This document shows, piece by piece, positions 9,044-57,399 of a DNA stretch of 64,000 bases. Below the pieces are notes generated by a model. That model saw only the letters and a list, made by a program, of their open reading frames with translations. It searched no databases and was not told the origin of the DNA. The stretch covers positions 62,001 through 126,000 of the forward strand of contig JBEWZL010000137.1 of NCBI GenBank assembly GCA_045837725.1, written 5' to 3'. The stretch comes from Vermamoeba vermiformis. Its lineage: Eukaryota. The translations under genes were made by a program, and so were the position numbers. Numbering within the stretch: the first letter of the stretch is position 1; every line of letters starts with the position of its first letter.

Positions 9044-11284
9044 ATGTCGAGTTTATTTTCTTCCTTCATGTCTGGTGGTACATCCACTAACAAAAGTGCG
9101 TCAGCCACGCCAACAAACCCAACCAGCAATGATGACGATAATTTGCCGCAAGTCGCTATTCCTGCTGCCAAAACAGGTATGTATTATATTGTATTCATTT
9201 AGGGTTCGCCATTGTTCTTTCTGAATTAACGAAAAATTCCAACGATCAAATCCAACAAAATCAATTGTAATACGCAAATAATCTAATTAATCGGCGCATA
9301 TTATTAGGACAACAAAGGAATGAAGGTTGGTTGAAAAAAGGAGGCATTTTGACGTATAAGCCTCGTTATTTTATTGAATACGACGGCAAGATCTATTACA
9401 AACGAAAGAAGGAAGACCAAAAGGCACGAGAGTACTTCCCTATTAACAAAATTATTGCTATTCAAATCACTAAAGGTAATAGCTCATAATTTTCCGATCG
9501 GGAACTTTCATAAAGACGCGTCGACTGACAATTCATGCTAATCACTGCAGAACTTGAACTGGAGTTCACTTTGACCGTAGTGGGCACTGGTGGTGACAAG
9601 CTGATTTACATGCAAGCGCTCAACCGCGAGGACTTTGATCGCTGGGTCAAGATCTTCGTCGAGCGTACTGGTCTGCCAGTGTTTGACGCCAACCAACAAG
9701 TGATGCCCAAGTACAAGAGCAAGGGTAAGGGTGTCGCTCATGCGAGTCAGTGCAACAGTCGCGACTCTGCTTTCGCCGTCAACTGAGGGGGCGTAGCTCC
9801 AACGGTAGAGCGGCGGATTCCAGGTCCGATGGTTGCGTGTTCGAATCACGTCGCCCTCATTACTTTTTTATTTTTTCTTTTGCCTTACCACTCTATTACA
9901 TCAGGTGCTCGTGCCTACACCAATGTCGGTGACGATGAAAGCAAGTCAGACTTTGCCAAGACACATCCTGGCGTGAAAGTCGTACCCGGAGCTGCACCCG
10001 AAGTTCAACGCACCGTGCAGCGCGTCGTCACCCCTAGCCGCACTGCCACTGCTGCCAAGCCTGCAAGTGAGAGCAATTCATTGGCCTCATCCACCGCTGA
10101 ACAACCACGCGACTTGCTCGTGGATCTGTCTGATCCCACCCCGACCTCACAACCTGCGCACCCAGTCAGCGCACCGAGCATGTTGCCCGTGGACGATGAG
10201 GTCGCGAAAGGTCTGCTCGAGCGCAATCAGAGTCTCTTGTCGCAGCTCGATCAACAGTTCAATCTCAACGAGGCCTTACAACAGCGCATCTCAGATCTGA
10301 TCCAACAGCTGCACCAACAAGTGCTGATCAATCAGAACGCGCAACAACAGCTCGTGGACCTGAGCACCGCTCTCAACGAGAAGAACAGCGCGGTCGAGGT
10401 ACGTGTGACTTGGTGTTCATCTATTCGCGGCACAGACTCACAGTTATTCTTAGGCACTGCAACGACAATTGAGCGAGGGTGGTGAATCCGTAAGTGATTT
10501 CTAAATATGGTAATATCAATACTAGATATTGACACGTGTCAAATAGTCAGCCAAATTGAACGAAGTGACGGAACAACTCGCACATCAGACCCAAGTGAAT
10601 GCAAATCTGCAAACACAAGTGACGCACTTGACCAATCAGCTCAACGAGCGATTGCACATGAGCCAAGAGCGACACTCGCAGGTAGATGAGCTCGAGAACA
10701 AGATCCGTCAGCTCAACGAAGACCTCGCGGCCAGTCAACTGCGTGTCACTGAGTTGACAGGTCAGCTGATGAATGAACAAGAGCGTGCAAAACAATTGGA
10801 GAGCACCGTCGAAGAACTCAAGTCGCGCGTGACGAGCGAGACCGCCAAAGAGACCGAGCTGAGTCACGCCAACGAGGAGTGGCAGCACAAGTACGAAGAG
10901 GAGGTCAAACAGCGCGCTGAACTCGAGCAACGCTTGGCACAACTGCAAACACAGCGCGATGAACTGCAAACGACTGAAGCCTCGCACAGCCAAGAGTGGC
11001 AACAAGAGCGCAGTTCACTGAACGAGACCGTGCACCAGCTCAAAGAGGAAGCGAGCAAGATGAGCGAGGAGATTGAACAGCTGCGCAGCACGAGCGAGGA
11101 CACGGAGAAACAGAATCAAATTCTCAACGAGAACGTGACAGCACTGAACAGCGTGATCATCAAGTTGACGTCGACCAATCAGCAGCTGTTGACGGAGCTC
11201 AATGCCTACAAACAGAAAGTGCCACCATCCCCGCAGAAACAAGTGCAACCTCCGCGCACTCCCTCCGCTGAGGACCGACTGTAA
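9044..11284 (+). CDS. PH-domain plus long coiled-coil protein
   Basis: EGWLKKGGILTYKPRYF...IYYKR...IYMQALNREDFDRWVKIF (PH fold), followed by Q/E-rich heptad exons from ~10200 to 11200. Confidence 0.85.
9787..9859 (+). tRNA. trnW-CCA: tRNA-Trp(CCA), nested in an intron (9725-9904) of the PH/coiled-coil gene
   Basis: Cloverleaf: acceptor GGGGGCG/CGCCCTC, D arm GCTC/GAGC, anticodon loop TT-CCA-GG, T arm GCGTG-TTCGAAT-CACGT, discriminator A, downstream T-run (Pol III terminator). Confidence 0.95.
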
Positions 11285-14811: not shown

Positions 14812-16302
14812 TCAGCGCGGTGTACTACAGGTGATCCAAGGGTGTTGCAGTGCCTGTTCAGCGGTGAGGCGCAGTGCTGGATCGTGCGCGAGGAGGGCGT
14901 GGAGCAGATCGGCGAGCTGTGGACTGAGCGGTGCAGCTGTAGTGCTGGTGGTGCTGGTGCGCGTGGGGGGACAACAATAGCGCTGCGTGGTAACGAGCCA
15001 GTGCAGCTCATCGAGTGTGTCGGCGCTGTAGGGGTAGTGCTGGAACAGGAGCTGACTGCGAGGGGGGATTAGTGCTGGTACGCGAGGGTGGGGGGTGTGT
15101 ATGTATATGTGTATATTGTATATATATGTATGTATGTGTGTATATGTGTGTGGTGTATCGATATTGATGTGTATGTAGTATACTGAACAGAGTACGTACT
15201 GTGCCACGACACCCAAGGCCCACATGTCCGCACTGCGCGCACAGTGAGCACGTGCACTGAGCAGTTCAGGGGCCATGTACAGCGGTGATCTGTCGGCGAG
15301 GGGTGAGTGGAGGGGGGTAATAATAATGGGGGGTATAGAGTACTTACCCTAGTGCCTCGTGGACGTGTGTCACGTGATCGGTCAGGGCCAGACCGAAGTC
15401 AATCAGCGTCACGTGCAGGCTGTGCGGCACGATCAGCACATTCTCCAGCTTGAGATCGCGATGTGCTACACCCCTAATTAGGCAATGGTCAGTGCTTGCT
15501 GATCAGCTGATCGGAATTGACACTTGCCTTGTATGGCAATGGTGCACGGCATCGAGCAGCTGTCGCATGATCAGCCGCACGGAATGTTCCGACAGTTGCG
15601 AGCCGCGAGTCACGTGCTCGTCCAAGTAATTCCGCAGTGTGACAGCACCGCGCGGCGAGGTTAAAAATAGATACGCGTACTCGCTGTCGCGGTGCACGTG
15701 ACACAGCTGCACAATGTTGGCGTGGGGCGGCAGTGTTTGCAGCGCTGTGAGCTCGCGATTGACACCTGTCAAATGCATGTCAGTCAGTCACACCGATGCG
15801 TGGTCAACGCTAGTCAACAGCACGTACAGGTCAGGGCAGCACGTGATTGGTGGCACACTTGTTTGCAGGCATACACCGCGCCGTTCACTGAATCGTGCGC
15901 GCGACGAACCACGCTGCGTAGTGTTAGTATTATAATGGTATTTATATGCCTATAGTATATTGGTGCCGCATATACGATAGTTGATAAAAATAAATAATTA
16001 TAGTAATAAAAATAATTCGGGGCATCTGAAGAAGTAAATGATAATTGTCAGAAACTCCGATGTATAATTATGTACAGCATGCTATGTATGTACTAAATTG
16101 TGCCATCACTCGATAAATTTTCAAGCAACAAATCGAAATTGAATTTCAAGCCAGATCTGAAATAATTAATTATTAATTACCTGAACGAGCCACTGCCCAA
16201 CACGTGCTGCATATCAATGCTATACTCGTGCACGTGCTGGTGTGGGGTGCGCGTGAGGGCAGTGCTCGACACTTTGCGCTCTAGTGCTTTGCCGCAACTC
16301 AT
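14812..16302 (-). CDS. Ser/Thr protein kinase (CAMK/AMPK-like)
   Basis: LGSGSFSVV, YACK, HANIVQL, HRDLKLENVL, IDFGLA, GSPLYMAPE, DMWALGV, RLTAEQALQHPWI. Confidence 0.93.
15095..15152. repeat. Degenerate (TA/TG)n microsatellite in a kinase intron
   Basis: gtgtgtatgtatatgtgtatattgtatatatatgtatgtatgtgtgtatatgtgtgtg. Confidence 0.8.
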
Positions 16303-20259: not shown

Positions 20260-22618
20260 CTAGAAAGGATGTTCACGCTTGTCAGTCGTGTCCGTGTAGA
20301 TCACATTGGGCTGCACGTGAGGCAAAGGACGCTGCACAAAGAGCGGGTGCGACAAGAATTGCTGCGTGGGTCCTGCGCTCTGTGGCTGCAGGGGCGAGGG
20401 CGGGGGCGGCACTTGCGCAGACATGACAAAGGTGGGTCCGTTGAAGTTGTACACCATTGACTGCGCGTTGTGTGGTGCGTAGTAGGGCTGTGGATACTGC
20501 GCGCTGTTGTTGTACTGTGGGGCAGCGGAATAATTATTGTGTGCGGCAGTGGTGTTCGTCACGTGATTGGGCTGCTGTGGCGCAGTCACGTGCTGTTGTT
20601 GCGCACTGCTGGTCTGCGCAGAGATCCACGTGGTCTCGCTGGGTGCGTGCGTGAGTTTGAATCGGCCCACAATCCACAGTGCACTGCGCTCGCTGGTCAC
20701 GTGACTGTCAGCGCGCAACGGAATGGGCTGACTGAGCTGCATGCGCATCACAAAGTTGGGCGGGCTATTATTAGCACTCTCTTCTAGCTTGCGGAAATCA
20801 TACACTATTAATAGCACCTAATTAGCACCACTCACGTCACGAATCGACGGAATAACTTACCCGTAATAATTCCGCCCTCCGCGCAGCACTGCGAGGCCTG
20901 AGTGCCACCAATGACAACCGTATACGTGCCAGTGAAATCTCCGCCAGTCACGTGATCGACTCGTACGGGCAGAGCACGTGCTTGTCGGTGTTTGCCGAGC
21001 GGAAGAAATTGATCCGCGATCAGAGTGTCGTGCTTGTACAGCACCATGAAGAAGTCTTTGCACTTCTGCTGAATCACGTGATCTTTGCGGCACACCAGCA
21101 CCACCACCAACTGCGCACCTAATCGGGCCTCAGTGCTCACACGTCGCTTGCCAAATATGGTCATTTTCAATTTCAGTCGTTGCAGCCACGAGGGAGTGTT
21201 GTGGTCCTCGCCAGTCACGTGACTGTTGACCAATCGCGACAGTCGTTCGAGATCTGCGCGCAAATTAGGCAATAACGCGAGATTGTGATCGAGATTGCCG
21301 AGCACGTGCCTCAATCGCGCGAGATTTCCCTTGAGTTGCGCGCTGTCCAGTCCGACTCTGATCACGTGACTCTTGAGTGCCTCGACGAGCAGGGCAATGA
21401 GTGGTGCGGGACTGATCGACCACACTCCGCGCTCATCGCGTCGACTCGCTTCCGGCACCACTTGCGCCACCTGTTGCGCGATCAGTCCGCACACCGCTCT
21501 GCCCCCACTGTACTGTGCATGCGCGTGCGGTGCCAGGCCCAGCGCTTCAGGCTTCCACTCGAAGCTCTTGCCCTCGAGCTGCAGCACTTGTTCCAGGGCC
21601 TCGCTCAGCTCTTCGAACGAGGTCTTGAGCGTCAGATCGCTGAACTGCACAAAACCACGTGCTTTCATCACACCGAGCACATCGATCGAGCCAGGAATCA
21701 CGTGCTCAGCTGCCACCACGTGCTCCTCTTCATGAACGGCGTCGATGCTCATCTTGCGCGCACGACTGCTCTGCACGGGACTGGGCACTGGTGCGGGCTG
21801 AGTGCCGCGCGGACTCTCCTCGCTGCCGTCCTTCTTCCTGCGCACGTGGTTATTACCCAAATAAGGCAAGTGAGTCTAAATATGGTCGAGGGCACTTACT
21901 TCTTCTGCTTGCCCGAGTTGTGCGTGCCGAACAGCACTGAGCGCAGAGTGAGGGGTCCAGTCTCAGCTCTAGCGACAGCAATCTCAAAGCAGAGCGTCTT
22001 GCTCAGTTGAAACAGCTTGATCTCGTACTCCAGCTGCGTACTGCCGCCGATCTTCACTTGTTCGCTCTCGACCACAAACAAGGGCTCGCCATTGCTGTCA
22101 ATAGTCTGCGAGGTCATTTGATAGGTCTTGTCGTTCAACTCTTCAGGTTGACCCACATCTAAGAGGTTAATCTGGACTTGTGAGCTTTCGAGGGGCGTAG
22201 ACGACTTAATCACTAATTTCAACTTTTTGCCAACCCCCTTTGTCACTCGTATCAATTCGTTGTGTTCAATGAGCTTCCAAGTGCCCTTGCCGCCGCGTTG
22301 TTTGTGAAACAAGCTGATTTGAACTGGATTATGGTTTCTGCGCAAAACAGCAATTAAAAAAGTCACAATAAATACACAAATAAATACAAAGGAAAATTTT
22401 AACGCAAAATTCACTTACAATGCGGCAGTACTCGTCGTTTTAATGTCAAAACTTGGATTCCAGTTAGCATTGGTATTATCTTCAACAGGCAGCTCGCCTT
22501 CTAAGAACAGATCGTCTAATATATCGTCGTCATCTGAATTCACACCAAATTGCGATTGGTTCACTGCGTAGCTGTGAGATGGCTTGAAATACTGCGGAGG
22601 CAGATGTTCTTGCATCAT
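20260..22618 (-). CDS. Peptidase S74 / intramolecular chaperone autoprocessing (ICA) domain protein, candidate transcription factor
   Basis: GSIDVLGVMKARGFVQFSDLTLK...LEQVLQLEGKSFEWK...GLIAQQVAQVVPEA...LIALLVEALKS followed by a coiled coil; upstream beta-rich basic domain ending FGTHNSGKQKK; Q/P/N-rich C-terminus. Confidence 0.85.
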
Positions 22619-30156: not shown

Positions 30157-33100
30157 TTATTTCTGTTTCAGATCGTTCGAGATCCGCTCCACGCCAGGTC
30201 GAGTGTTGGTCTTCATGGGTCGATAGAGCGTGTTCATCAGTGCACTGCGCTCGGGCTTGACATTGTCCTCGGCTGGTCTGCCCACACGCAGCGTGAGACA
30301 GGTGACGTGGCCCATCAGGCCCGGGTACTGCTTGTGATCTTTGGGCATGGGCGCGTTGGTGTTGTTCTCCATGAACAGCCGCACACGACTGGTCAGCTTG
30401 CGACAGTGCGCAATCACATTCTGCGTGATCTTGCTCGCTGTGCAGTCCTCGAGACCAGCGATCAACTTGCTCAGGCCCTGTGCTCTGAAGGCGCGCTTGA
30501 CACTCTCTGGATCTGCGACATCACTCCATTTGTCCTCTTTGCGCTGCGGATCCACTTCTTTGGGACTGTGGCCGAGGTACTCGGGATCAAAATTGGCGTG
30601 AGCAGCACCGCTCAAGAAGAGCACAAAGTCGTCCTCGTGACACTTGGTGAGTGTGAGACCCATGTTGCCGAGGTCAGGCGCGTCGTCTTTGTCTTGCAAC
30701 AGGCCCAAGCGACCACTGCTCGTCGACCAGGGCGTGACATCGAACACCTGGCCCTGGCGATACACATAGGCCTTGTGCTCACCAATGTTCACAGTCAGCA
30801 GTGCCCACAGTGCCCCGTCTTGTGTGGCCGGGTCTGTGTTGGAGAGACGCAGCAGCACCGCACCGAGCGCATTGCAAGTCTCGGGTTCAGTGAACGAGAC
30901 GGGCGAGAGATCGGTGCTGATCGAGAGCTGGTTGCGGTCGAGCATGGAGCGGTGCGCGTGAGCACAGGCCTTGATGCACGCCAGACCTGCCTTGACTGTG
31001 TCATCGACCTTGCTCTGCTCCATGGTGATGTAGTCTACCAGGGCGTGATTGGCTTGCAGACTGCTGTCACGTGATCGCTCTCCCCAATTGCTGCCAGAGG
31101 TGAGTGCCACACTGACGCGATTGTTGGTGAGTTCAGCGGCGAAGTGATCGACAATCGGATCACCGATGCGCGCCCCATTGACGACAGGATAGGTCGAGAC
31201 ACTCCAGCCCGAGATCATGTCGCTGTAGCGTATCTCTTCTTCCTTGTCCACAATGTTCGACAAGAACTTCATGAAGCTGATGTTGTAGGTGCGCAGCGCG
31301 TGTTTGGGCACGTGACGAATCAGCTCTTGACACTTGCGGTCAAACAGCTCCGAGATCTTTGCATCGCGTGATGTCACGTGCTTGTCAGATGTCAACTTGT
31401 CAGTCACGTGTCGCACAGTGACAGGACTGCCATCTTTCTTGCTCTTGCCAGTCTTCACCTTGCGCTTGTCCTTCTTGTTCTTGTCACTCACGCGCAGTGG
31501 TGTGTTGTTGTTGCTCGGCACGGGCACGGGTTGTGACTCGCTGTGCTCGTTGGTGCTCAACAGACTGCCCACTCTGAAGCAGATCACAGAGGCGTGATCG
31601 GGCTTGCCAGGGTACTCGTGGTACTTGTCAGGCTCGCCCTTGTCGGGATTGTTCTCCATGAACAGACGCTTGTTGCGCGTCAGTCGCACGCAGTAGTCGA
31701 TGAGTGACTGCGCCACTTGTCCCACCGTGCTGCGCGCACCGTGCTCGGTGATGAGTCGCGTCAGTTCCGTGGTCTGGAACTGTTCTTTCACCTCCTCCAA
31801 CACCTCAGGCGCGACATTCTTCCAGAGATTGTCCGGCACATTGAGCTGCAAGTCGGCAGGGGTCTTGCCAGCAGGCACAGGGGCGAGGTTGTCGTGCACA
31901 CCGTCTGTCATGAGCAGCAGTATGTCGTCTTGCTTGCAGGGCACAAAGTAGCAGGAGAGATTGGACAGATCGGGCTGACCACCCTTCAAGTGCGGGCCCA
32001 ATCTGCCACCCGTGTCCTTCATGTCCTGCCGTCTGTTGCTGTCAGTAATGTCGAGCAGCTGTTGCGTGCTCTGTGACCACAAGAAGGCCTTGCAGTCCCC
32101 GACATTGACGCACACAAAGGCCCACTCGTCAAAGTCGTAGTCCTGTTCGCTGATCTTCATCACCATGCCGCCCAAGAAGGTCGTGGTGCCGCACTCCCAG
32201 ATGTCGTCGCGACTCTTGCCCTCGACGATCTTCTCGTGTGCCTTGGTCAGACCGCGCAGCAAGAAGTGCTTGCAGTCCGTCGTGTCGCGAATCATGCTCT
32301 GAATCATCGACTGCGACATGAAGTCAATGAACGCCGTGCTCGCTTTCACCGCTGCATCTCTGTTGCGCGGTCCCCAGCCACAGCCATCAGCCAGGGCCAG
32401 CAGCGCGCGATTGGTGTGCGGCATGAGACGCACTTTGAACCAGTCGCAGATCACTTCAAAGCCCTGACCGACACGCGGGTAATTGGCCAATGAGAGCGCA
32501 GCACAGCGATCTGCAAACAAGCACTTGACTGCTTGACCCTGTTGATCGCTGCCCTGCATGTCGAGCACGTGACCAGCAGGTGGTTCAGTGAACGACTGTT
32601 CGAGCACACTGAAGTGATCGACTTGCAGCGTTTGACGGCGCGGACTGTGCAACGACACCGCGAGCACGCCCTCTTCATCCTCGACAAAGCGCTGCACCCG
32701 CAGAGTGGGTATGCCAGCCTTGTCGTAGTTGTACTTGAGGTGATGTCTGTTGGCGCGAATGAAGTCCTGAATGGAGGGATAGATGATCAGCTCCTCCTTG
32801 TCCACCGCACTGCTGCTCACACTGCTGTGCGACACGTTGCCACCGCTCGGCGGGGTTACTTCTCCTACACGCGTCAAATCTCCGCGATCACGTGCCGTGG
32901 GCGGTGACTCAGCAGTCACGTGCTGCATGATCGGCGAGGGCTCTTCGTGCGAGCTGGAATTGCCGTGCAGATCATCCTCGGAGCCCTGCTTGCTGATGGA
33001 GCCCTTGGCCACCACGTAGCCCGAGTGCACCTTCTGCAACAAGACGTGCTTGATGTTGTGGCTCTTCTTCACATAGGAGCACACCAAGAAGATGGAGGTG

Positions 33101-35415
33101 AGGCGACTGTCGCTGAAGTGGAACATGTACGTGCCGGGCACACGACCCTCCAACAGCTCCTCGCTCTCTTCGATGGACAGATCACCCACGAACCAGTTCT
33201 TGTTGCGCAGATCGGACTGCAGGGGCTGCAGCAGAATGTGATTGTAGTGCGCGATCAGCTGCTCCAGCGACTGGAACTTCTTCTCCACATTGTTCTCCTC
33301 GCTGATCTTCACACCCTCGGGCATGTGGCTCTTGATCAGCACCGTGCGAATGCGACCGCGCTCCTCCACGTACTCGAGTGCGAAGGAGTCCGTGCGACTG
33401 CGACTGAACCGCACGAGATAGGTGCCCGTGCTCTGATCGGCCAGCAGCTTGATGACCTCTTCCACGGCCATGAAGCCGTAGAACCACCTGTGTGACACGT
33501 GTCAATCGAGCACTCGTGCCCAAATATGGTTAAGTACGTACTTGTAGCTGAATAACTTGCGCACATGAGCAATGCTGTGTTCAATCGGTCCAAAGGTCTT
33601 CAAGAAGTCGCTGAACTTGCTCGGTGACACGTGACCGAGATTGTCGGTGTCCAACACGTACTTGAGCAGCGCTTCTGTCTCGGGGTCCAGCGCATTGCTC
33701 GGCGCCGTGGTGCTGTTCGTGGTGGTGTTGCTATTATTAGCTGCATTGGTATTGTTATTGACATTGGTAGTATTAACTGCATTATTGTTGTTGCTGCTAC
33801 TAGTGCTCGCATTGCTGTCAGTGGTGCTATTATTAGGCACAGCGGCGGGCACGAACTGCGCCAAGAACTGTTCCCAGGGCACCATGTCCACATCCACCGC
33901 TCCATCTGCAAATTTGCTGTTCCAAAATGACTGGCCCTCGCTAGTGCTGATGCGCATTACCGAGCGATGTCGCTGCACTTGTCGCTCAGTGCTGCTCTGC
34001 ACCAGACCCAGTGTCTCTAACAGCACTTTAATCTCGCTGCGAGATCATGTTAGTCGCACATTACCAAATATAGCAATCAGTACGTGCCTGTGAATCATTG
34101 AGTCAAATCGCGCTAATTTTCTGCGACGATGAGGATTGTTCAAATACACGCTTAATTTTCCGCCGCGGAATAATTGACCCAGCAGTCTGTTGTAGTCCTC
34201 GAGCAGTGCTTTGAGGCGGAATAACTCTTCCATTTGTTCCGCTGGTGGCGGGGAGAATTTAACGCCGTCGTTGGTGTTGGTGTTGCTATTTATAGACTCC
34301 GTGGGGGACGAGGAGAGGCCCGTGGAGTCACGTGGACTGGAGTGCGTGGCGTGACTGGCTGCGATTTGACCCCAGTTCGCATTCATCCACACGGACTGCA
34401 GCTGCGAGTTCTGCTGTTGATGCGCATTTGCAGTCTTGGGCCGTGGTGGCAATGTGCCAGGGCCTTGTCCCTGACTCGTGCGGTGACTGCCCACGGCTGC
34501 CGAGCTCAGTGTCAGCGGTGCATCAGCGGAGGGTCGCACGCGCGGACTGGACATGGGCATGGCGCTACCATTCGGAGACCAGCCCGAGACACGGTCCAGG
34601 GTGTGTGCCACCAACTCGTTCGTGAACAGAAAGTCCTCCACTTCATCTTCGATCTGACGCCGCCACAGCTCTTTGATCATCGAGTTCAGTGCCTTGCACC
34701 GCTCTGTGGATGGATTAGTGGCGGGCATAGTATTAAGCGTAGTATGCACGACGTTGCAGTCACAATATATAATATTATTGATAGCGAGATCCAATGGACA
34801 CGATGATTTCCGTTAAAATATTTCTATATTTAGCGCAATGTTTACGCGACTAGAAAGGCCATTGCTAAGTAATTGAATGTTGATACTAATATACTGTACG
34901 CGAATTCGTTTGTTTACGGCCGATAAACGTTGTTTAATTTGAAATTTAAAATTGGATTGGATGTATAAACAAAGGCGATTAATTACTCATACAGCAAATA
35001 AACAAATCACTACATACCCATTATAGATTCAACTGATTGTTCACTATTATCGTCATTATCTTGAATTAAATTCCCTCCTTTGCTCAGTGCGGGAGTTGAT
35101 TTGCTCAATGGAGGTTTGCGCGGCTTTGTCGGCTTGTTTTTGCCATCTTTATCTTTGATCTTCTTCTTCTCTATGGATTGGATCGGTTAATTTGATATTC
35201 AATGCGAATACATCTGAAATTCCATTACCCTTTAACTTCTTGATGTGCGGTAATAGTTTACGTCTGGCCTTCTTATCAACGCCAATATTAATAAGGTCAT
35301 CTTCTGTAAAGTTTTCAATGGTGTTGAGCGGCACATTCGCTTTTTTAAACAAATCTCGAAGCTCGCTCAGCCCGATTTGATCCAGCCATTTAGATACTTC
35401 AGTAAAATGCTCCAT
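30157..35415 (-). CDS. SAM - Cbl-like EF-hand - SH2 - SH2 - PP2C-like - degenerate PP2C-like multidomain protein
   Basis: SAM (VSKWLDQIGLSELRDLF..TEDDLINIGV); EF-like (LKYVLDTDNLGHVSPSKFSDFLKTFGP); SH2 (WFYGFM..GTYLVRFSRS; WFVGDL..GTYMFHFS); PP2C-like (ALADGCGWG, GTTT, NVGDCK, MTDGVHDN). The SAM exons join through phase-compatible introns (inferred). Confidence 0.85.
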
Positions 35416-40588: not shown

Positions 40589-43500
40589 CTACTGATTGGC
40601 CTCGAAGAATTGGCGCAGTGCTGGCAAACTATTCTCGACCGAGGAGTACGTCTTCAAGCAGCCGCGGATCCACTTGGACAATTTGTTCGCGCAGTCCTCG
40701 CGTGCATAGCGCTCATCGAGCAGTATAATCGCGCCGTAGTCTCGTATGTGTCGAATGCACCGACCAATGGCCTGATTGACTGCACGATAGGCCTGCAACG
40801 CGTACCAGCTAATGTGAAGTGTTACTCGCTGATGCTATATTTAGCCGCGGTGTATATATATATAGCCTACCTATTGCCATCCAGCAGTCCTAAGCTTTGC
40901 TTGCGTTGCGTGTTGAATTCTTTTTTCAGTACAATCTTCAGATCTTTCCTAAAAAGGAGTTCAAAATCAGAGTCAAATTTGCTTTGATCCGGATCGGACA
41001 GTGCTACATACACTAGCGGGAATGGAATGCCAATCACTATCACTGCGCGTGCATTGTGATCGCTGAAATCGAGCCCTTCACTCACTTTGCCGCGACACAC
41101 CGCGCAGAACAGCGCTAAAAATAGTTGAGAACTCATATCAATGTACTAATTAGGCAATACCTCCTTGCGCGCTCTCAGTGGCGGAATAATACGTTGACAT
41201 CACACCTGCAAAGTTCTCTTCTGCGGACCTCGGCTCTGTCACTACAATTAGCGCACACTAAATTATTGCAAAGACACGACGCACCAATCGCCACGGTTTT
41301 GCGACATTGCACTTGGTGCCACAGGCCAGTGTTGGTCCAGCGCTCAATCATCTTGTCCATCAGACCGTAGGACGGGAAGAAGCACAGCACACCGTGAGGG
41401 ACCACTTGACAGTACTGCAGCAATGCAGCTCCGATGGCATCTATTACCATATTAGGACATGCAAGCACTCCTCACAGTAGTACCTTGATATTCAAATGAG
41501 ACCGAATTGGTGTACACGCTGTTGAACTTGACTGTCTTGGGGGCCAGAGCACCGACCCAGATCTGACACGTGTCAATCACCGAGCGACAAGTACTGTGAC
41601 ACTTACCTGTTTGGTCGTGTTGATCACGTGATTGGTTTGCACGTTGTGAGGAAACTTCGTGGCAAGTTCACCGGCAAACGAGTCCATTGGAGACAAGGTG
41701 CCAGATGTCACAATGATGGTTCGAGCTGTCAAACGTGTCACATATTGAGCAGCACTAACACCTATTTATATGTCCCTTACCAACACCCGCGATCTGTGTG
41801 AATGCCACTGCGGGGTTGAGACACCACAGGCCAATGGAATAGCTCCACACGCGACGTCCTGTCATTGTTAATAGTTGAACGAATTGATGCAATGCTTACC
41901 ATTTTTGGGCACGAGTGTCTTTTGAATCACCACTTTGTAGTCGTGTTGAAAGCGATAGTTCTGCGTCGTCAAATAGTGCGCTATTCGGAACAGATGTGAG
42001 AGGAGAATTTCATTTTTCTGCGAAAACAATCGCTCGTCCGACTCGTTGTTCACTCCCAGACCGTGATTGAGCTTGCCGATCAGCCCTGTGATACTTTCAG
42101 CTGTCACTCCGTAGTCCGCGAGCAGTGTCACTAATTCAGCCCCGCCCCATCTGTATTGCATCAGCGACCAATAACACCACACTAGCGCACTTACACATTG
42201 GAGTTGGTTTCAAAGTCTGTCGGCTTCAAATTGCCAATAGCTTTTCGAACCCAAGAAAGCAAGCCATCGATAATCTGCTTGAACGGTTATAACGTCGAAT
42301 ATCAGTGAGGTACTTACGGTGACAAATGGTCCAAAGTGTTCGGCCAGCGGTGTCATATTGACCATGTGTAACTCGTCTGTCAGTCCTAGCTGCTGTGTCA
42401 GTACAATTCATTTGACACGTGTCACACATCACTCACCAACTAAGTCCTCTAAAGTGAAGTCCATCGTCGTTGCCTCGCGTGCTGCGTCTTCAATGTTGCT
42501 AAAAATAGATTATTACACTCGCTGCCTGTGCCACTAACACTTACTGGGCCTCATCGAAAATGACCACTGCGCCTTGCAGTTCAATCTTGAATGACTCGCG
42601 AATACCCGGGTCTAAGAGATAATTGTACGGACACAACACGAGATCAGCTTTGTACGAGAGTGTCTTGGCCCCAAAGTACGGACAAGCTGTCAACGGTGTC
42701 AGTCAAACATGTCAAAATGACACGTGTCAACTTCACTCACCTTTATTGTCCTGACCGAGCAGCACAATGTCCTCGAGATCCCACGGCTCAGTCTTCAAGT
42801 CCTCGCGCTCAGTCAGCACGGACTTTCGGTTCTTGTACGTGCAGCCTTGAGGCGTGTCCACCAACTTGCGGCTGTGTGAACGTTAGATATGGAGCGCTGT
42901 CACGTGTCAACATGTCACTTGCCAGTCTGTGTCTCGAGTGCGTGAGAGACTGATGGTCGGGTGCACGCATGTGTGATCACGTGATCCAATCACTGCCATT
43001 TTAGGACGGTAAGGAGTCTTGCGCAGTTCAGCGACCACTTTTTTGACCTGCGCGTGCGTGCGTGATGCGTAATAGATCTTCGGTGCTGGAGGCCGCGGTG
43101 TTTGCGACCCTTCATCGTCACTGTCGCCGTCACGTGACTGTTTCTTCTTTGGATCTCGCGAACCCTTTCCTGTTTTGGAAGGCTCCTTCTTGACACTTGC
43201 CTTGATCGCAGACTTGCTATCCACCTTGCGCTTCTTTGCACTGCTGTCGTCAGAGCAGTGGTCGAGACTACGCTTCTTGTTGGGCGTGACGAACACGCGC
43301 TTGCTGGACTGAAAATCATCGTCCAACTCACTCAGATCTAATGTCACTCGATTGCTGTCGCTGGAGTGGGTCATTGTATTCTTGTTACTATTGTCATCTT
43401 CAATAGTGATCACTGAGGGATGTGGATCTGGTTTGATTTCGATTTTGATTTCGACTTGCTTAGCTTCCTGCTTGACCTCCTGAGCCAATGATTGCTTGTT

Positions 43501-53987: not shown

Positions 53988-57338
<3,351 letters not shown>

Positions 57339-57399
57339 TTGTAGTGCTTTGTCATGTAAAACTACTCATTTAACACAAACAACGCGTCAATTTATTTGC

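What the first reader, a model, noticed from the sequence alone, without database searches (positions are those of the whole stretch)
9787..9859. tRNA-Trp(CCA) with a 4-bp anticodon stem (G27:A43 mismatch) in a genome that still uses UGA as stop
Seen: the anticodon arm is G-CGGA-TTCCAGG-TCCG-A, so the top pair is G:A, with U32/G38 in the loop. The other arms and the terminator are intact. Known: a shortened 4-bp anticodon stem in tRNA-Trp(CCA) enables UGA decoding in Blastocrithidia nonstop and Condylostoma magnum. Seen: here lysA, TMX2, the helicase, kinase, WIPI3, RNMT-like, ankyrin and F-box genes end in TGA, and the long exons use TGG for Trp. Inference: a natural UGA readthrough tRNA or a precursor state of codon reassignment.
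Basis: partly seen in the sequence, partly recalled or inferred. Interest (0 to 1): 0.75.

Follow-up and report, generated by a model that had tools for sequence, protein, structure and literature searches.

The report
Conserved tryptophan tRNA with open stem
A microbial eukaryote's ordinary tryptophan tRNA gene carries a fixed, conserved G-A mismatch at the top of its anticodon stem, the kind of change that lets some protists read the UGA stop codon as tryptophan, yet this organism still ends its genes with UGA.

Summary
Window 9787-9859 (+) is a tRNA-Trp(CCA) gene, and its only non-standard pair is G27.A43.

G27 is not a sequencing error or a one-off copy:
- In the source run, contigs carrying G27 and A43 have about 5.5 times the depth of the unique flanks.
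- An independent soil-metagenome contig shows no listed difference in the tRNA.
- All 7 of 7 tRNA-type metagenome matches carry G27, U32, G38 and A43, at three or more loci.

The gene lies in a 180-nt intron of a host gene. In a diverged relative the exon differs at 27 of 164 sites, 26 of them third-codon positions. The 5' intron flank is at random-level identity, yet the tRNA is 72/73 identical.

UGA is a normal stop: it ends 3 of 6 homology-supported genes. Six TAA/TAG-bounded frames (2,487 codons, 26 TGG) hold no TGA.

The tRNA meets the structural definition of a 'Blastocrithidia-like' tRNA-Trp (PMC13092985). The readthrough or precursor-state reading is untested: expression, modification, eRF1 and readthrough could not be examined. 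The same situation is documented in bacteria (PMC13092985), so this is a new member of a known kind.

The parts
9787..9859 (+). Nuclear tRNA-Trp(CCA) gene, 73 nt, with A73 discriminator and G1:C72
   Evidence: ARAGORN; Rfam RF00005, 53.4 bits, full-length match; sequence
9813..9813 (+). G27, the 5' partner of the non-Watson-Crick top pair of the anticodon stem
   Evidence: Flagged as a non-standard pair by cmscan. No other letter is listed here in source run X1 or soil run X6. G in 7 of 7 metagenome tRNA copies.
9829..9829 (+). A43, the 3' partner of G27
   Evidence: as for G27
9820..9822 (+). Anticodon CCA (positions 34-36)
9818..9824 (+). Anticodon loop UUCCAGG. It has U32 and G38 where the Rfam consensus has C32 and A38. 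The centroid fold pairs U32 with G38.
   Evidence: U32 and G38 in 7 of 7 metagenome copies
9800..9800 (+). C at the column of the conserved A14 (8-nt D loop CAACGGUA). It can equally be read as an extra C before an AACGGUA loop.
   Evidence: cmscan alignment; an invariant column in alignment A1
9784..9786 (+). TGA at -3 to -1 of the tRNA. It is conserved in all 8 aligned copies, although the flanks further out are unrelated between paralogous loci.
   Evidence: Invariant columns T298 G299 A300 of alignment A1
9860..9881 (+). Trailer TTAC (invariant in all copies) followed by T runs at 9864-9869, 9871-9876 and 9878-9881. This is a pol III terminator by consensus.
   Evidence: Sequence; invariant columns T374 T375 A376 C377. 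Terminator function is inferred.
9725..9904 (+). 180-nt GT..AG intron of a + strand protein-coding host gene; the tRNA lies inside it on the same strand
   Evidence: A contig of run X4 skips 180 bases, GT..AG. Raw RNA reads of X22 (a diverged relative) break at 9722 with a loose end. GT at 9725-9726 and AG at 9903-9904.
9551..9724 (+). Upstream host exon. Its 5' edge is approximate, taken from the AG in the alignment with L009.
   Evidence: Alignment A1. Window vs L009 over 9560-9723: 137/164 identical, with 26 of 27 differences at codon position 3.
9905..10482 (+). Downstream host exon. Its 3' edge is not determined; the open frame ends at 10482.
   Evidence: Window vs L003: 163/207 identical.

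Best explanation
This is the working, multi-copy cytosolic tryptophan tRNA of a microbial eukaryote, transcribed by RNA polymerase III from inside an intron of a protein-coding gene. Its job is to read UGG.

[quoted passage not shown] These letters are kept by purifying selection.

UGA remains a stop codon. By analogy with standard-code bacteria whose only tRNA-Trp has a 4-bp stem, the release factor out-competes this tRNA at UGA. The G.A pair probably stays stacked between C28:G42 and G26.U44. Any gain in near-cognate UGA reading is therefore modest and tolerated, not a reassignment.

Shown: it is a tRNA-Trp(CCA) gene; it sits in an intron; the sequence is multi-copy; it is conserved; UGA is used as a stop.

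Inferred: expression, aminoacylation, the geometry of the G.A pair, and the outcome of the competition with eRF1.
For: - Gene identity.

- Eukaryote-type identity letters G1:C72 and A73 are present. Their role as identity elements is recalled knowledge.

- Multi-copy in the source run X1: contigs covering 9784-9842 and 9813-9861 have depths 2838 and 2795 with 0 other letters. The unique flanks have depths 525 and 479. No other letter is listed at 9813 or 9829 at a 2% threshold.

- Independent data: an X6 soil-metagenome contig covers 9600-9861 with 6 other letters and 2 gaps. Five of the six are listed, all at 9750-9769, and none in the tRNA. L008 has the same pattern and is 73/73 in the tRNA.

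- Metagenome scan with positions 27, 32, 38 and 43 left free: 14 matches. Seven are tRNA-Trp by ARAGORN and all 7 have G, U, G, A. The other 7 are chance matches in non-tRNA DNA.

- Selection: for window vs L009, the exon is 137/164 identical (26 of 27 differences at codon position 3), the 5' intron flank is 22/57, and the tRNA is 72/73. For window vs L008, the intron parts are 55/61 and 37/42 and the tRNA is 73/73.

- UGA as stop: the kinase, WIPI-like and RNMT-like genes end in TGA within 4-7 residues of the end of the homology match. AlaRS and CPSF100 end in TAA, and HPPD in TAG.

- Six TAA/TAG-delimited frames (2,487 codons, 26 TGG) contain 0 TGA.

- The three in-frame TGAs that join long open stretches each lie in a 51-54-nt segment with splice-site ends.

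Against: - No RNA evidence for the tRNA itself. The one raw-read RNA run laid (X22) had 0 reads on 9728-9967. It is a cDNA library from a relative only 85-95% alike, so it could not test expression.

- 'Sole Trp isodecoder' is not proven. No whole genome is held. Of the contig pieces laid, 12 were not shown, differences near contig ends are not listed, and a Trp tRNA under 85% alike would not have been laid. The tool also warns that depth is not a copy number.

- The metagenome pattern fixed the rest of the arm, so it could only find close relatives.

- The features of this tRNA are the ones reported to raise UGA readthrough. Opening the top pair of yeast tRNA-Trp gave about 7-fold more readthrough, and pyrimidine-28:purine-42 favours it (10.1101/2023.06.19.543857 passages). 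A natural G27-A43 mismatch in E. coli tRNA-Thr helped suppression once the anticodon was changed (PMC13092985 passage). A 'modest' effect is therefore my inference, not a result.

- In 13 of 19 bacterial orders, genomes with only the 4-bp form use fewer UGA stops. Here 3 of 6 supported ends are TGA, so that signature of conflict is not seen, although n is very small.
Confidence: 0.6

Rival explanations
1. The open 27:43 pair makes this tRNA-Trp(CCA) a natural UGA reader. UGA stops in this organism are measurably leaky, with Trp inserted and C-terminal extensions produced. The lineage then sits in an 'ambiguous intermediate' state in which the tRNA change has come before any change of the code.
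For: - The tRNA meets the structural definition of a Blastocrithidia-like tRNA-Trp: open top pair, 7-nt loop, A9 and G24 unchanged (definition in PMC13092985).
- C28:G42 fits the pyrimidine:purine rule.
- The form is fixed, multi-copy and the only one detected.
- C14 and U32/G38 lie in regions known to tune decoding, the hinge and the 32-38 pair (PMC13092985).
- Swart et al. argue that tRNA changes need not coincide with eRF1 changes (10.1101/2023.10.09.561518, whole text read).
- All three supported TGA stops are followed by G. By recalled knowledge that is a strong termination context, which could be a counter-adaptation. With n = 3 this is only a hint.
Against: - UGA is the commonest supported stop (3 of 6), and no in-frame TGA was found in 2,487 codons of TAA/TAG-bounded frames.
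- G.A differs from the C.U of B. nonstop.
- All bacteria with 4-bp-stem tRNA-Trp keep UGA as a stop.
- An in vitro selection found no effect of opening the top pair alone in E. coli tRNA-Trp (PMC13092985 discussion).
- No readthrough measurement exists for this organism.
Confidence: 0.25
2. The mismatch is functionally neutralised in the mature tRNA. One route is a modification of G27 (for example dimethylation, as at G26), which would make G27.A43 behave like the normal 26.44 purine-purine hinge pair. Another is the U32.G38 pair tightening the loop and offsetting the open top pair. Either way, decoding fidelity would equal that of a normal 5-bp tRNA-Trp.
For: - G26-G27 is a tandem G context.
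- m2,2G at position 27 exists in vertebrate tRNA-Tyr, made by TRMT1L (titles and abstracts only: 10.1101/2024.05.02.591343 and PMC11831618).
- Molecular dynamics in PMC13092985 found that 'unpinned' pairs often keep hydrogen bonds and stacking (passage).
- The identity of 32/38 tunes A-site binding and fidelity (PMC13092985 discussion).
- The centroid fold pairs U32 with G38.
- U32/G38 co-occurs with G27.A43 in 7 of 7 copies.
Against: - TRMT1L is described as a vertebrate paralogue (abstract), and nothing shows such an enzyme here.
- No modification data exist for this organism.
- The co-occurrence comes from close relatives only, so it is not independent evidence of compensation.
Confidence: 0.12
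3. Artefact or dead gene: G27 is a sequencing or assembly error, or this copy is a decaying pseudogene while another gene supplies tRNA-Trp.
For: A decayed tRNA-Trp-like copy does exist elsewhere in the source run. It is a 3197-nt contig of depth 291 that shares the 5' half up to C34 and then diverges, with a CUA triplet at the anticodon place and broken stems. No whole genome is held to list all Trp genes.
Against: - Identical letters appear in independent runs and metagenome contigs.
- The tRNA is 72-73 of 73 identical across relatives whose intron flanks are unalignable.
- The core sequence is multi-copy.
- All other stems are intact, and box-like and terminator features are present.
Confidence: 0.03

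Closest known systems
[quoted passage not shown] (Kachale et al. 2023, not held, known to me only through citing papers; PMC12153298 passages; 10.1101/2023.10.09.561518 whole text; PMC13092985 introduction)
   Same: It is a nuclear tRNA-Trp with a CCA anticodon, an unpaired top (27:43) pair in the anticodon stem and a 7-nt loop. No A9C or G24A change is present. It is the only form detected, and it is conserved within the lineage.
   Different: Those organisms translate in-frame UGA as Trp, whereas here UGA ends genes and is absent from long coding frames. The B. nonstop mismatch is C.U, while here it is G.A. eRF1 could not be examined. U32/G38 and C14 are extra departures, and I could not compare them with those tRNAs because figures are not held.
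Paramecium biaurelia 4-bp-stem tRNA-Trp(CCA) (Swart et al., bioRxiv 10.1101/2023.10.09.561518)
   Same: [quoted passage not shown] The authors flag such tRNAs as needing experimental tests.
   Different: There it is at least one of eight Trp genes. Here every copy detected has the mismatch, about 5-6 by depth ratio in the source run plus 7 of 7 metagenome copies, and it is conserved across diverged relatives.
'Blastocrithidia-like' tRNA-Trp(CCA) of standard-code bacteria (PMC13092985)
   Same: The structural definition is met. The organism keeps UGA as a stop while apparently having only the 4-bp form. G:A is one of the three commonest open pairs there.
   Different: This is a eukaryote, with one omnipotent eRF1 rather than RF2 as the competitor. 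The reduced UGA-stop usage seen in 13 of 19 bacterial orders is not evident here (3 of 6 ends are TGA, a tiny sample).
E. coli suppressor work: su7 27:43 mutants (Schultz and Yarus, as cited) and natural G27-A43 in tRNA-Thr (PMC13092985 ref 79, passage)
   Same: The same position is involved and, for tRNA-Thr, the very same G27-A43 mismatch. It is linked to better reading of a near-cognate or stop codon.
   Different: Those are bacterial tRNAs with engineered anticodons tested in reporter systems. This is a natural, unaltered eukaryotic tRNA, and nothing has been measured here.

Membership tests
Eukaryotic cytosolic tRNA-Trp(CCA) | Cloverleaf recognised by a tRNA covariance model, full length | tested here: met
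   Rfam RF00005, 53.4 bits against a gathering score of 29, model positions 1-71 of 71; ARAGORN
Eukaryotic cytosolic tRNA-Trp(CCA) | Anticodon CCA at positions 34-36 | tested here: met
   window 9820-9822
Eukaryotic cytosolic tRNA-Trp(CCA) | Eukaryote/archaeal-type TrpRS identity letters G1:C72 and A73 (the rule is recalled, not from a call) | tested here: met
   The letters are read. That they are the identity set is recalled knowledge.
Eukaryotic cytosolic tRNA-Trp(CCA) | Nuclear location with a pol III-type gene layout (internal box regions, T-run terminator) | tested here: met
   The gene lies in a spliced intron of a nuclear protein-coding gene. T6 runs start 5 nt after position 73. The box match was judged by eye against a recalled consensus.
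Eukaryotic cytosolic tRNA-Trp(CCA) | Expressed and charged with tryptophan | not testable with these tools
   The only raw RNA run laid had no reads on the tRNA and is a cDNA library of a relative.
Blastocrithidia-like 4-bp-stem tRNA-Trp(CCA) (definition in PMC13092985) | Anticodon stem of 4 standard pairs, opened at the top (27:43) | tested here: met
   G27 faces A43. Pairs 28:42 to 31:39 are C-G, G-C, G-C and A-U.
Blastocrithidia-like 4-bp-stem tRNA-Trp(CCA) (definition in PMC13092985) | 7-nt anticodon loop | tested here: met
   UUCCAGG. The MFE and centroid folds pair U32.G38, which would shrink the loop on paper.
Blastocrithidia-like 4-bp-stem tRNA-Trp(CCA) (definition in PMC13092985) | No A9C and no G24A (Hirsh) change | tested here: met
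   A9 and G24 are present.
UGA-to-Trp reassignment system (4-bp tRNA-Trp plus altered termination) | In-frame UGA codons in conserved coding sequence, read as Trp | tested here: not met
   There are 0 TGA in six TAA/TAG-bounded frames (2,487 codons, 26 TGG). The three in-frame TGAs examined lie in 51-54-nt intron-like segments.
UGA-to-Trp reassignment system (4-bp tRNA-Trp plus altered termination) | UGA no longer used, or rarely used, as a gene-terminal stop | tested here: not met
   3 of 6 homology-supported gene ends are TGA.
UGA-to-Trp reassignment system (4-bp tRNA-Trp plus altered termination) | eRF1 substitution at Ser67/70 (which Swart et al. report is not strictly needed) | not testable with these tools
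UGA-to-Trp reassignment system (4-bp tRNA-Trp plus altered termination) | The 4-bp form is the only tRNA-Trp(CCA) of the organism | tested here: inconclusive
   Only this form was seen: source-run contigs, with no other letter at 9813 or 9829, and 7 of 7 metagenome copies. There is no complete genome, and a Trp tRNA under 85% alike would have been missed.

The most novel reading that the evidence does not exclude
This lineage would be the first free-living eukaryote with the standard code whose entire tRNA-Trp complement is of the readthrough-prone type: an open 27:43 pair, C28:G42, and an altered D loop and 32/38 pair. It would be a living 'ambiguous intermediate'. UGA stops would be measurably read as Trp across the genome, held in check by strong stop contexts, by eRF1, or by the co-fixed U32.G38 pair. 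That would show that the tRNA change can come long before a change of code.
Probability: 0.2. Interest if true: 0.75.

Novelty: new member of a known kind. Interest (0 to 1): 0.5.

Why it matters
How UGA became a tryptophan codon in several protists is under active debate. One side links the 4-bp-stem tRNA-Trp closely to reassignment, together with an eRF1 change. It cites the absence of this tRNA from standard-code relatives as support (PMC13092985 introduction). The other side argues for an ambiguous intermediate in which tRNA and release factor compete (10.1101/2023.10.09.561518).

This organism appears to have only the open-stem form, conserved over deep divergence, while UGA is a common stop. 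That makes it a natural test case. If its UGA stops are leaky, it shows the intermediate state. If they are not, it shows that an open 27:43 pair, at least G.A with U32/G38, is not sufficient in a eukaryote, which sharpens the rules for predicting decoding from tRNA sequence.

In my searches of the held library, the only standard-code eukaryote reported with such a tRNA is one of eight genes in Paramecium biaurelia.

Tried and rejected
- Whole-genome comparison of Trp isodecoders: no genome is held.
- Scan notes: by sequence, by genome, by words and by relatives all returned nothing.
I used standard-code ORFs and direct reading of the DNA at in-frame TGAs instead.
- ORF-length comparison with each stop made sense. 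It is uninformative, because TGA is simply the commonest stop trinucleotide (2,838 against 1,674 TAA and 1,113 TAG).
- Thermodynamic fold: z -1.02, so it gives no support by itself.
- ESM Atlas on the HPPD exon to get a clade: only generic dioxygenase clusters, with no taxonomic help.
- The genome search on the metagenome records behind L001, L007, L008, L009 and L013, to look at other tRNAs of the lineage: the records are not held.
- Kachale et al. 2023 (Nature): not held, so it is known to me only through citing papers.
- X22 raw RNA reads gave no reads on the tRNA. The library and strain are unsuitable, so this says nothing about expression.
- The second row used wrong intron coordinates and is discarded.
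- The 818-codon antisense ORF opposite AlaRS was considered as a possible gene and rejected. The sense exon has 0 TTA, 0 CTA and 0 TCA in 797 codons in the same register.
- Comparing the stability of the G27 and paired-27 versions of the anticodon arm was left out, because it would need a changed sequence.
Full report
**1. The observation**

ARAGORN finds one tRNA in the 64-kb window: tRNA-Trp(cca) at 9787-9859 on the + strand. Rfam's tRNA model matches the same 73 bases full-length at 53.4 bits (gathering score 29), and its non-canonical-pair line marks a single pair. Read from the sequence, the features are:

- Acceptor stem: 7 pairs, including G2.U71.
- D stem: GCUC/GAGC.
- Then G26.
- Anticodon stem: GCGGA (27-31) against UCCGA (39-43).
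- Anticodon loop: UUCCAGG.
- T stem: GCUGU-type GCGUG/CACGU.
- Discriminator: A73.
- Two T6 runs begin five bases after the gene.

A9 and G24 are the usual letters, so this is not a Hirsh-type or A9C-type tRNA.

There are two further departures from the Rfam consensus. Free-energy folding alone does not distinguish the sequence from shuffles (z -1.02). Its centroid structure pairs U32 with G38.

**2. Not an error and not a lone copy**

I laid four runs on 9600-10050.

- In the probable source run X1, the unique flanking contigs have depths 525 and 479.
- The contigs covering 9784-9842 and 9813-9861 include G27 and A43, show 0 other letters, and have depths 2838 and 2795.
- That ratio is about 5.5, which I read as roughly five to six identical gene copies. 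The tool warns that depth is not a copy number.
- No alternative letter is listed for X1 at 9813 or 9829 at a 2% threshold.
- Caveats: 12 laid pieces were not shown, and differences close to contig ends are not listed.

A soil-metagenome contig from a different study (X6, 737 nt) spans 9600-9861 with 6 other letters and 2 gaps. The five listed ones are all at 9750-9769 in the intron, and none is in the tRNA.

A scan of public metagenome contigs used a pattern that fixes the arm but leaves positions 27, 32, 38 and 43 free. It gave 14 matches.

- Seven are tRNA-Trp genes by ARAGORN.
- The other seven are chance matches in GC-rich non-tRNA DNA.
- All 7 of 7 tRNAs have G27, U32, G38 and A43.
- Two are identical to the window tRNA, and five differ only by U20C.
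- By their flanks they represent at least three different loci.

**3. Genomic setting and selection**

A contig of run X4 joins 9723/9724 to 9904/9905 and skips 180 bases with GT..AG ends. Raw RNA reads of X22 come from a relative only 85-95% alike, and they break at the same donor. The tRNA therefore lies, in sense orientation, inside intron 9725-9904 of a protein-coding gene. Other introns read in this window are about 50 nt long.

The arrangement is conserved. L008 is the same locus in a near-identical strain. L009 and L003 are the two halves of the same locus in a more diverged relative. Identities against the window are:

| Comparison | Exon(s) | Intron part(s) | tRNA |
|---|---|---|---|
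| Window vs L009 | 137/164; 26 of 27 differences at third codon positions | 22/57 (5' part; chance level) | 72/73 |
| Window vs L008 | 163/164 and 229/231 | 55/61 and 37/42 | 73/73 |

The whole tRNA, including the mismatch, U32/G38 and C14, is thus under purifying selection. No copy has acquired a compensating change.

All eight aligned copies also share TGA at -3 to -1 and TTAC after position 73, although the paralogous flanks are otherwise unrelated.

**4. How the organism uses UGA**

Pfam on 108 standard-code ORFs and a PDB sequence search give six gene ends where the homology match stops within a few residues of the stop codon:

| Gene | Support for the gene end | Stop |
|---|---|---|
| Kinase | Pkinase profile 263/263 at residue 172 of 178 | TGA |
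| WIPI-like | Aligned to chain residue 352 of 360 of human WIPI4 at query residue 292 of 296 | TGA |
| RNMT-like | Profile 314/315 at residue 178 of 185 | TGA |
| AlaRS | DHHA1 profile 102/102 at residue 795 of 797 | TAA |
| CPSF100 | Profile 163/163 at residue 127 of 130 | TAA |
| HPPD | C-terminus judged by eye | TAG |

All three TGA stops are followed by G.

To avoid circularity I looked at frames bounded only by TAA or TAG. Six such frames, 2,487 codons with 26 TGG, contain no TGA at all. The window-wide TGA frequency of 2.2% would give about 55.

Three in-frame TGAs connect long open stretches, and each lies in a short segment with splice-site ends:

- 33488-33541 (-): 54 nt, GTACGT..CACAG. 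Removing it joins SYK to WFYGF, the start of the SH2 match.
- 15474-15527 (-): 54 nt, GC-AG type. Removing it gives HCHTR-GVAHRDLK.
- 34033-34083 (-), or alternatively 34037-34147 (-): it has an ACTAAC branch site, and GC3 is 0.29 against 0.52 and 0.65 in the flanking codons.

The last two have no RNA support. UGA is therefore a regular stop and not a regular sense codon. With 26 TGG and 0 TGA, a UGA share of Trp codons above about 11% is unlikely.

**5. What it is most likely doing**

The simplest reading is that this is the lineage's ordinary tRNA-Trp. It reads UGG, and its top anticodon-stem pair is fixed as G.A. The mismatch sits between C28:G42 and a possible G26.U44 pair, so it may well remain stacked. 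Molecular dynamics on bacterial variants found that 'unpinned' pairs often keep hydrogen bonds and stacking (PMC13092985 passage).

Whether it raises near-cognate reading of UGA is open. Points in favour:

- Opening this pair in yeast tRNA-Trp raised readthrough about 7-fold.
- Pyrimidine-28:purine-42, which is C28:G42 here, favours readthrough (10.1101/2023.06.19.543857 passages).
- A natural G27-A43 in E. coli tRNA-Thr improved suppression once the anticodon was changed (PMC13092985 passage).

Points against a large effect:

- UGA is the commonest supported stop here.
- 8.9% of bacterial tRNA-Trp(CCA) genes have 4-bp stems, and every genome carrying one still uses UGA as a stop (PMC13092985).
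- One in vitro selection saw no effect of opening the pair alone.

A third possibility is compensation, either by the co-fixed U32.G38 pair or by a modification of G27. The identity of 32/38 tunes A-site binding (PMC13092985 discussion). m2,2G27 exists in vertebrate tRNA-Tyr (abstracts only).

**6. Comparison with what is known**

Structurally the gene meets the published definition of a 'Blastocrithidia-like' tRNA-Trp(CCA). The organism fails the defining features of a UGA-to-Trp reassignment, since it has no in-frame UGA and UGA stops are frequent. eRF1 could not be examined.

The closest precedents are standard-code bacteria that have only the 4-bp form (PMC13092985), and the single 4-bp gene among eight in Paramecium biaurelia (10.1101/2023.10.09.561518). 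In the held library I found no report of a standard-code eukaryote in which every detected Trp tRNA gene has the open pair. Supplements and figures of these papers were not seen, and Kachale et al. 2023 is not held.

**7. Verdict**

The structure fits and the code is standard, but readthrough or a 'precursor state' is untested and has a well-documented innocuous alternative.

It is a new member of a known kind, with moderate interest (0.5), mainly as a natural test case for the ambiguous-intermediate model. The organism is a microbial eukaryote with very short introns. I did not establish its clade.

Noticed in passing
whole window, e.g. 33491-33504 (-), 42900-42910 (-): CACGTG occurs 159 times in 64 kb, against about 14 expected from base composition. 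The commonest 8-mers in the window are CACGTG-centred (GTCACGTG 44, TCACGTGA 32, ATCACGTG 32, CACGTGAC 30; about 1 expected each). The motif appears inside long exons as HVT or SRD tripeptides, and in short introns. Its function is unknown.
   Followed up: partly
window 9784-9786 and 9860-9863; L001, L003, L007, L008, L009, L012, L013: Every copy of this tRNA, at unrelated loci, keeps TGA immediately upstream and TTAC immediately downstream, followed by T runs (invariant columns). This suggests a constraint on the leader and trailer, for processing or transcription, or a very short duplicated unit.
   Followed up: no
not in the window; contig record 3 of run X1: A decayed tRNA-Trp-like copy exists elsewhere in the source genome (3197-nt contig, depth 291). 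It matches 9784-9820 with one difference and then diverges, with a CUA triplet at the anticodon place and broken anticodon and T stems. It looks like a pseudogene, not a suppressor.
   Followed up: no
window 9725-9904 vs 33488-33541 (-), 15474-15527 (-): Introns read here are very short (51-54 nt, with CTAAC/CTGAC-type branch sites, and one of GC-AG type). The tRNA-bearing intron is 180 nt, and its position in the host gene is conserved in a relative with saturated third-codon divergence.
   Followed up: partly
window 54912-57365 (-): An 818-codon open frame lies antisense to the AlaRS exon and has no Pfam match. It is explained by codon bias: the sense exon has 0 TTA, 0 CTA and 0 TCA in 797 codons in the same register. 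It is not a gene.
   Followed up: yes
window 9600-9727 and 9968-10047: Raw RNA reads from a run carrying the same species label as the source are only 85-95% identical to the window, and most differences look silent. Together with L009/L003, this points to deep cryptic diversity under one species name.
   Followed up: no
window 20835-21875 (-) and 33505-34044 (-) with 30160-33501 (-): One ORF carries a Peptidase_S74 (chaperone of endosialidase) domain. A large gene combines a Cbl-type EF-hand-like domain and an SH2 domain ahead of a 1114-codon exon. The domain combinations are unusual and were not examined further.
   Followed up: no
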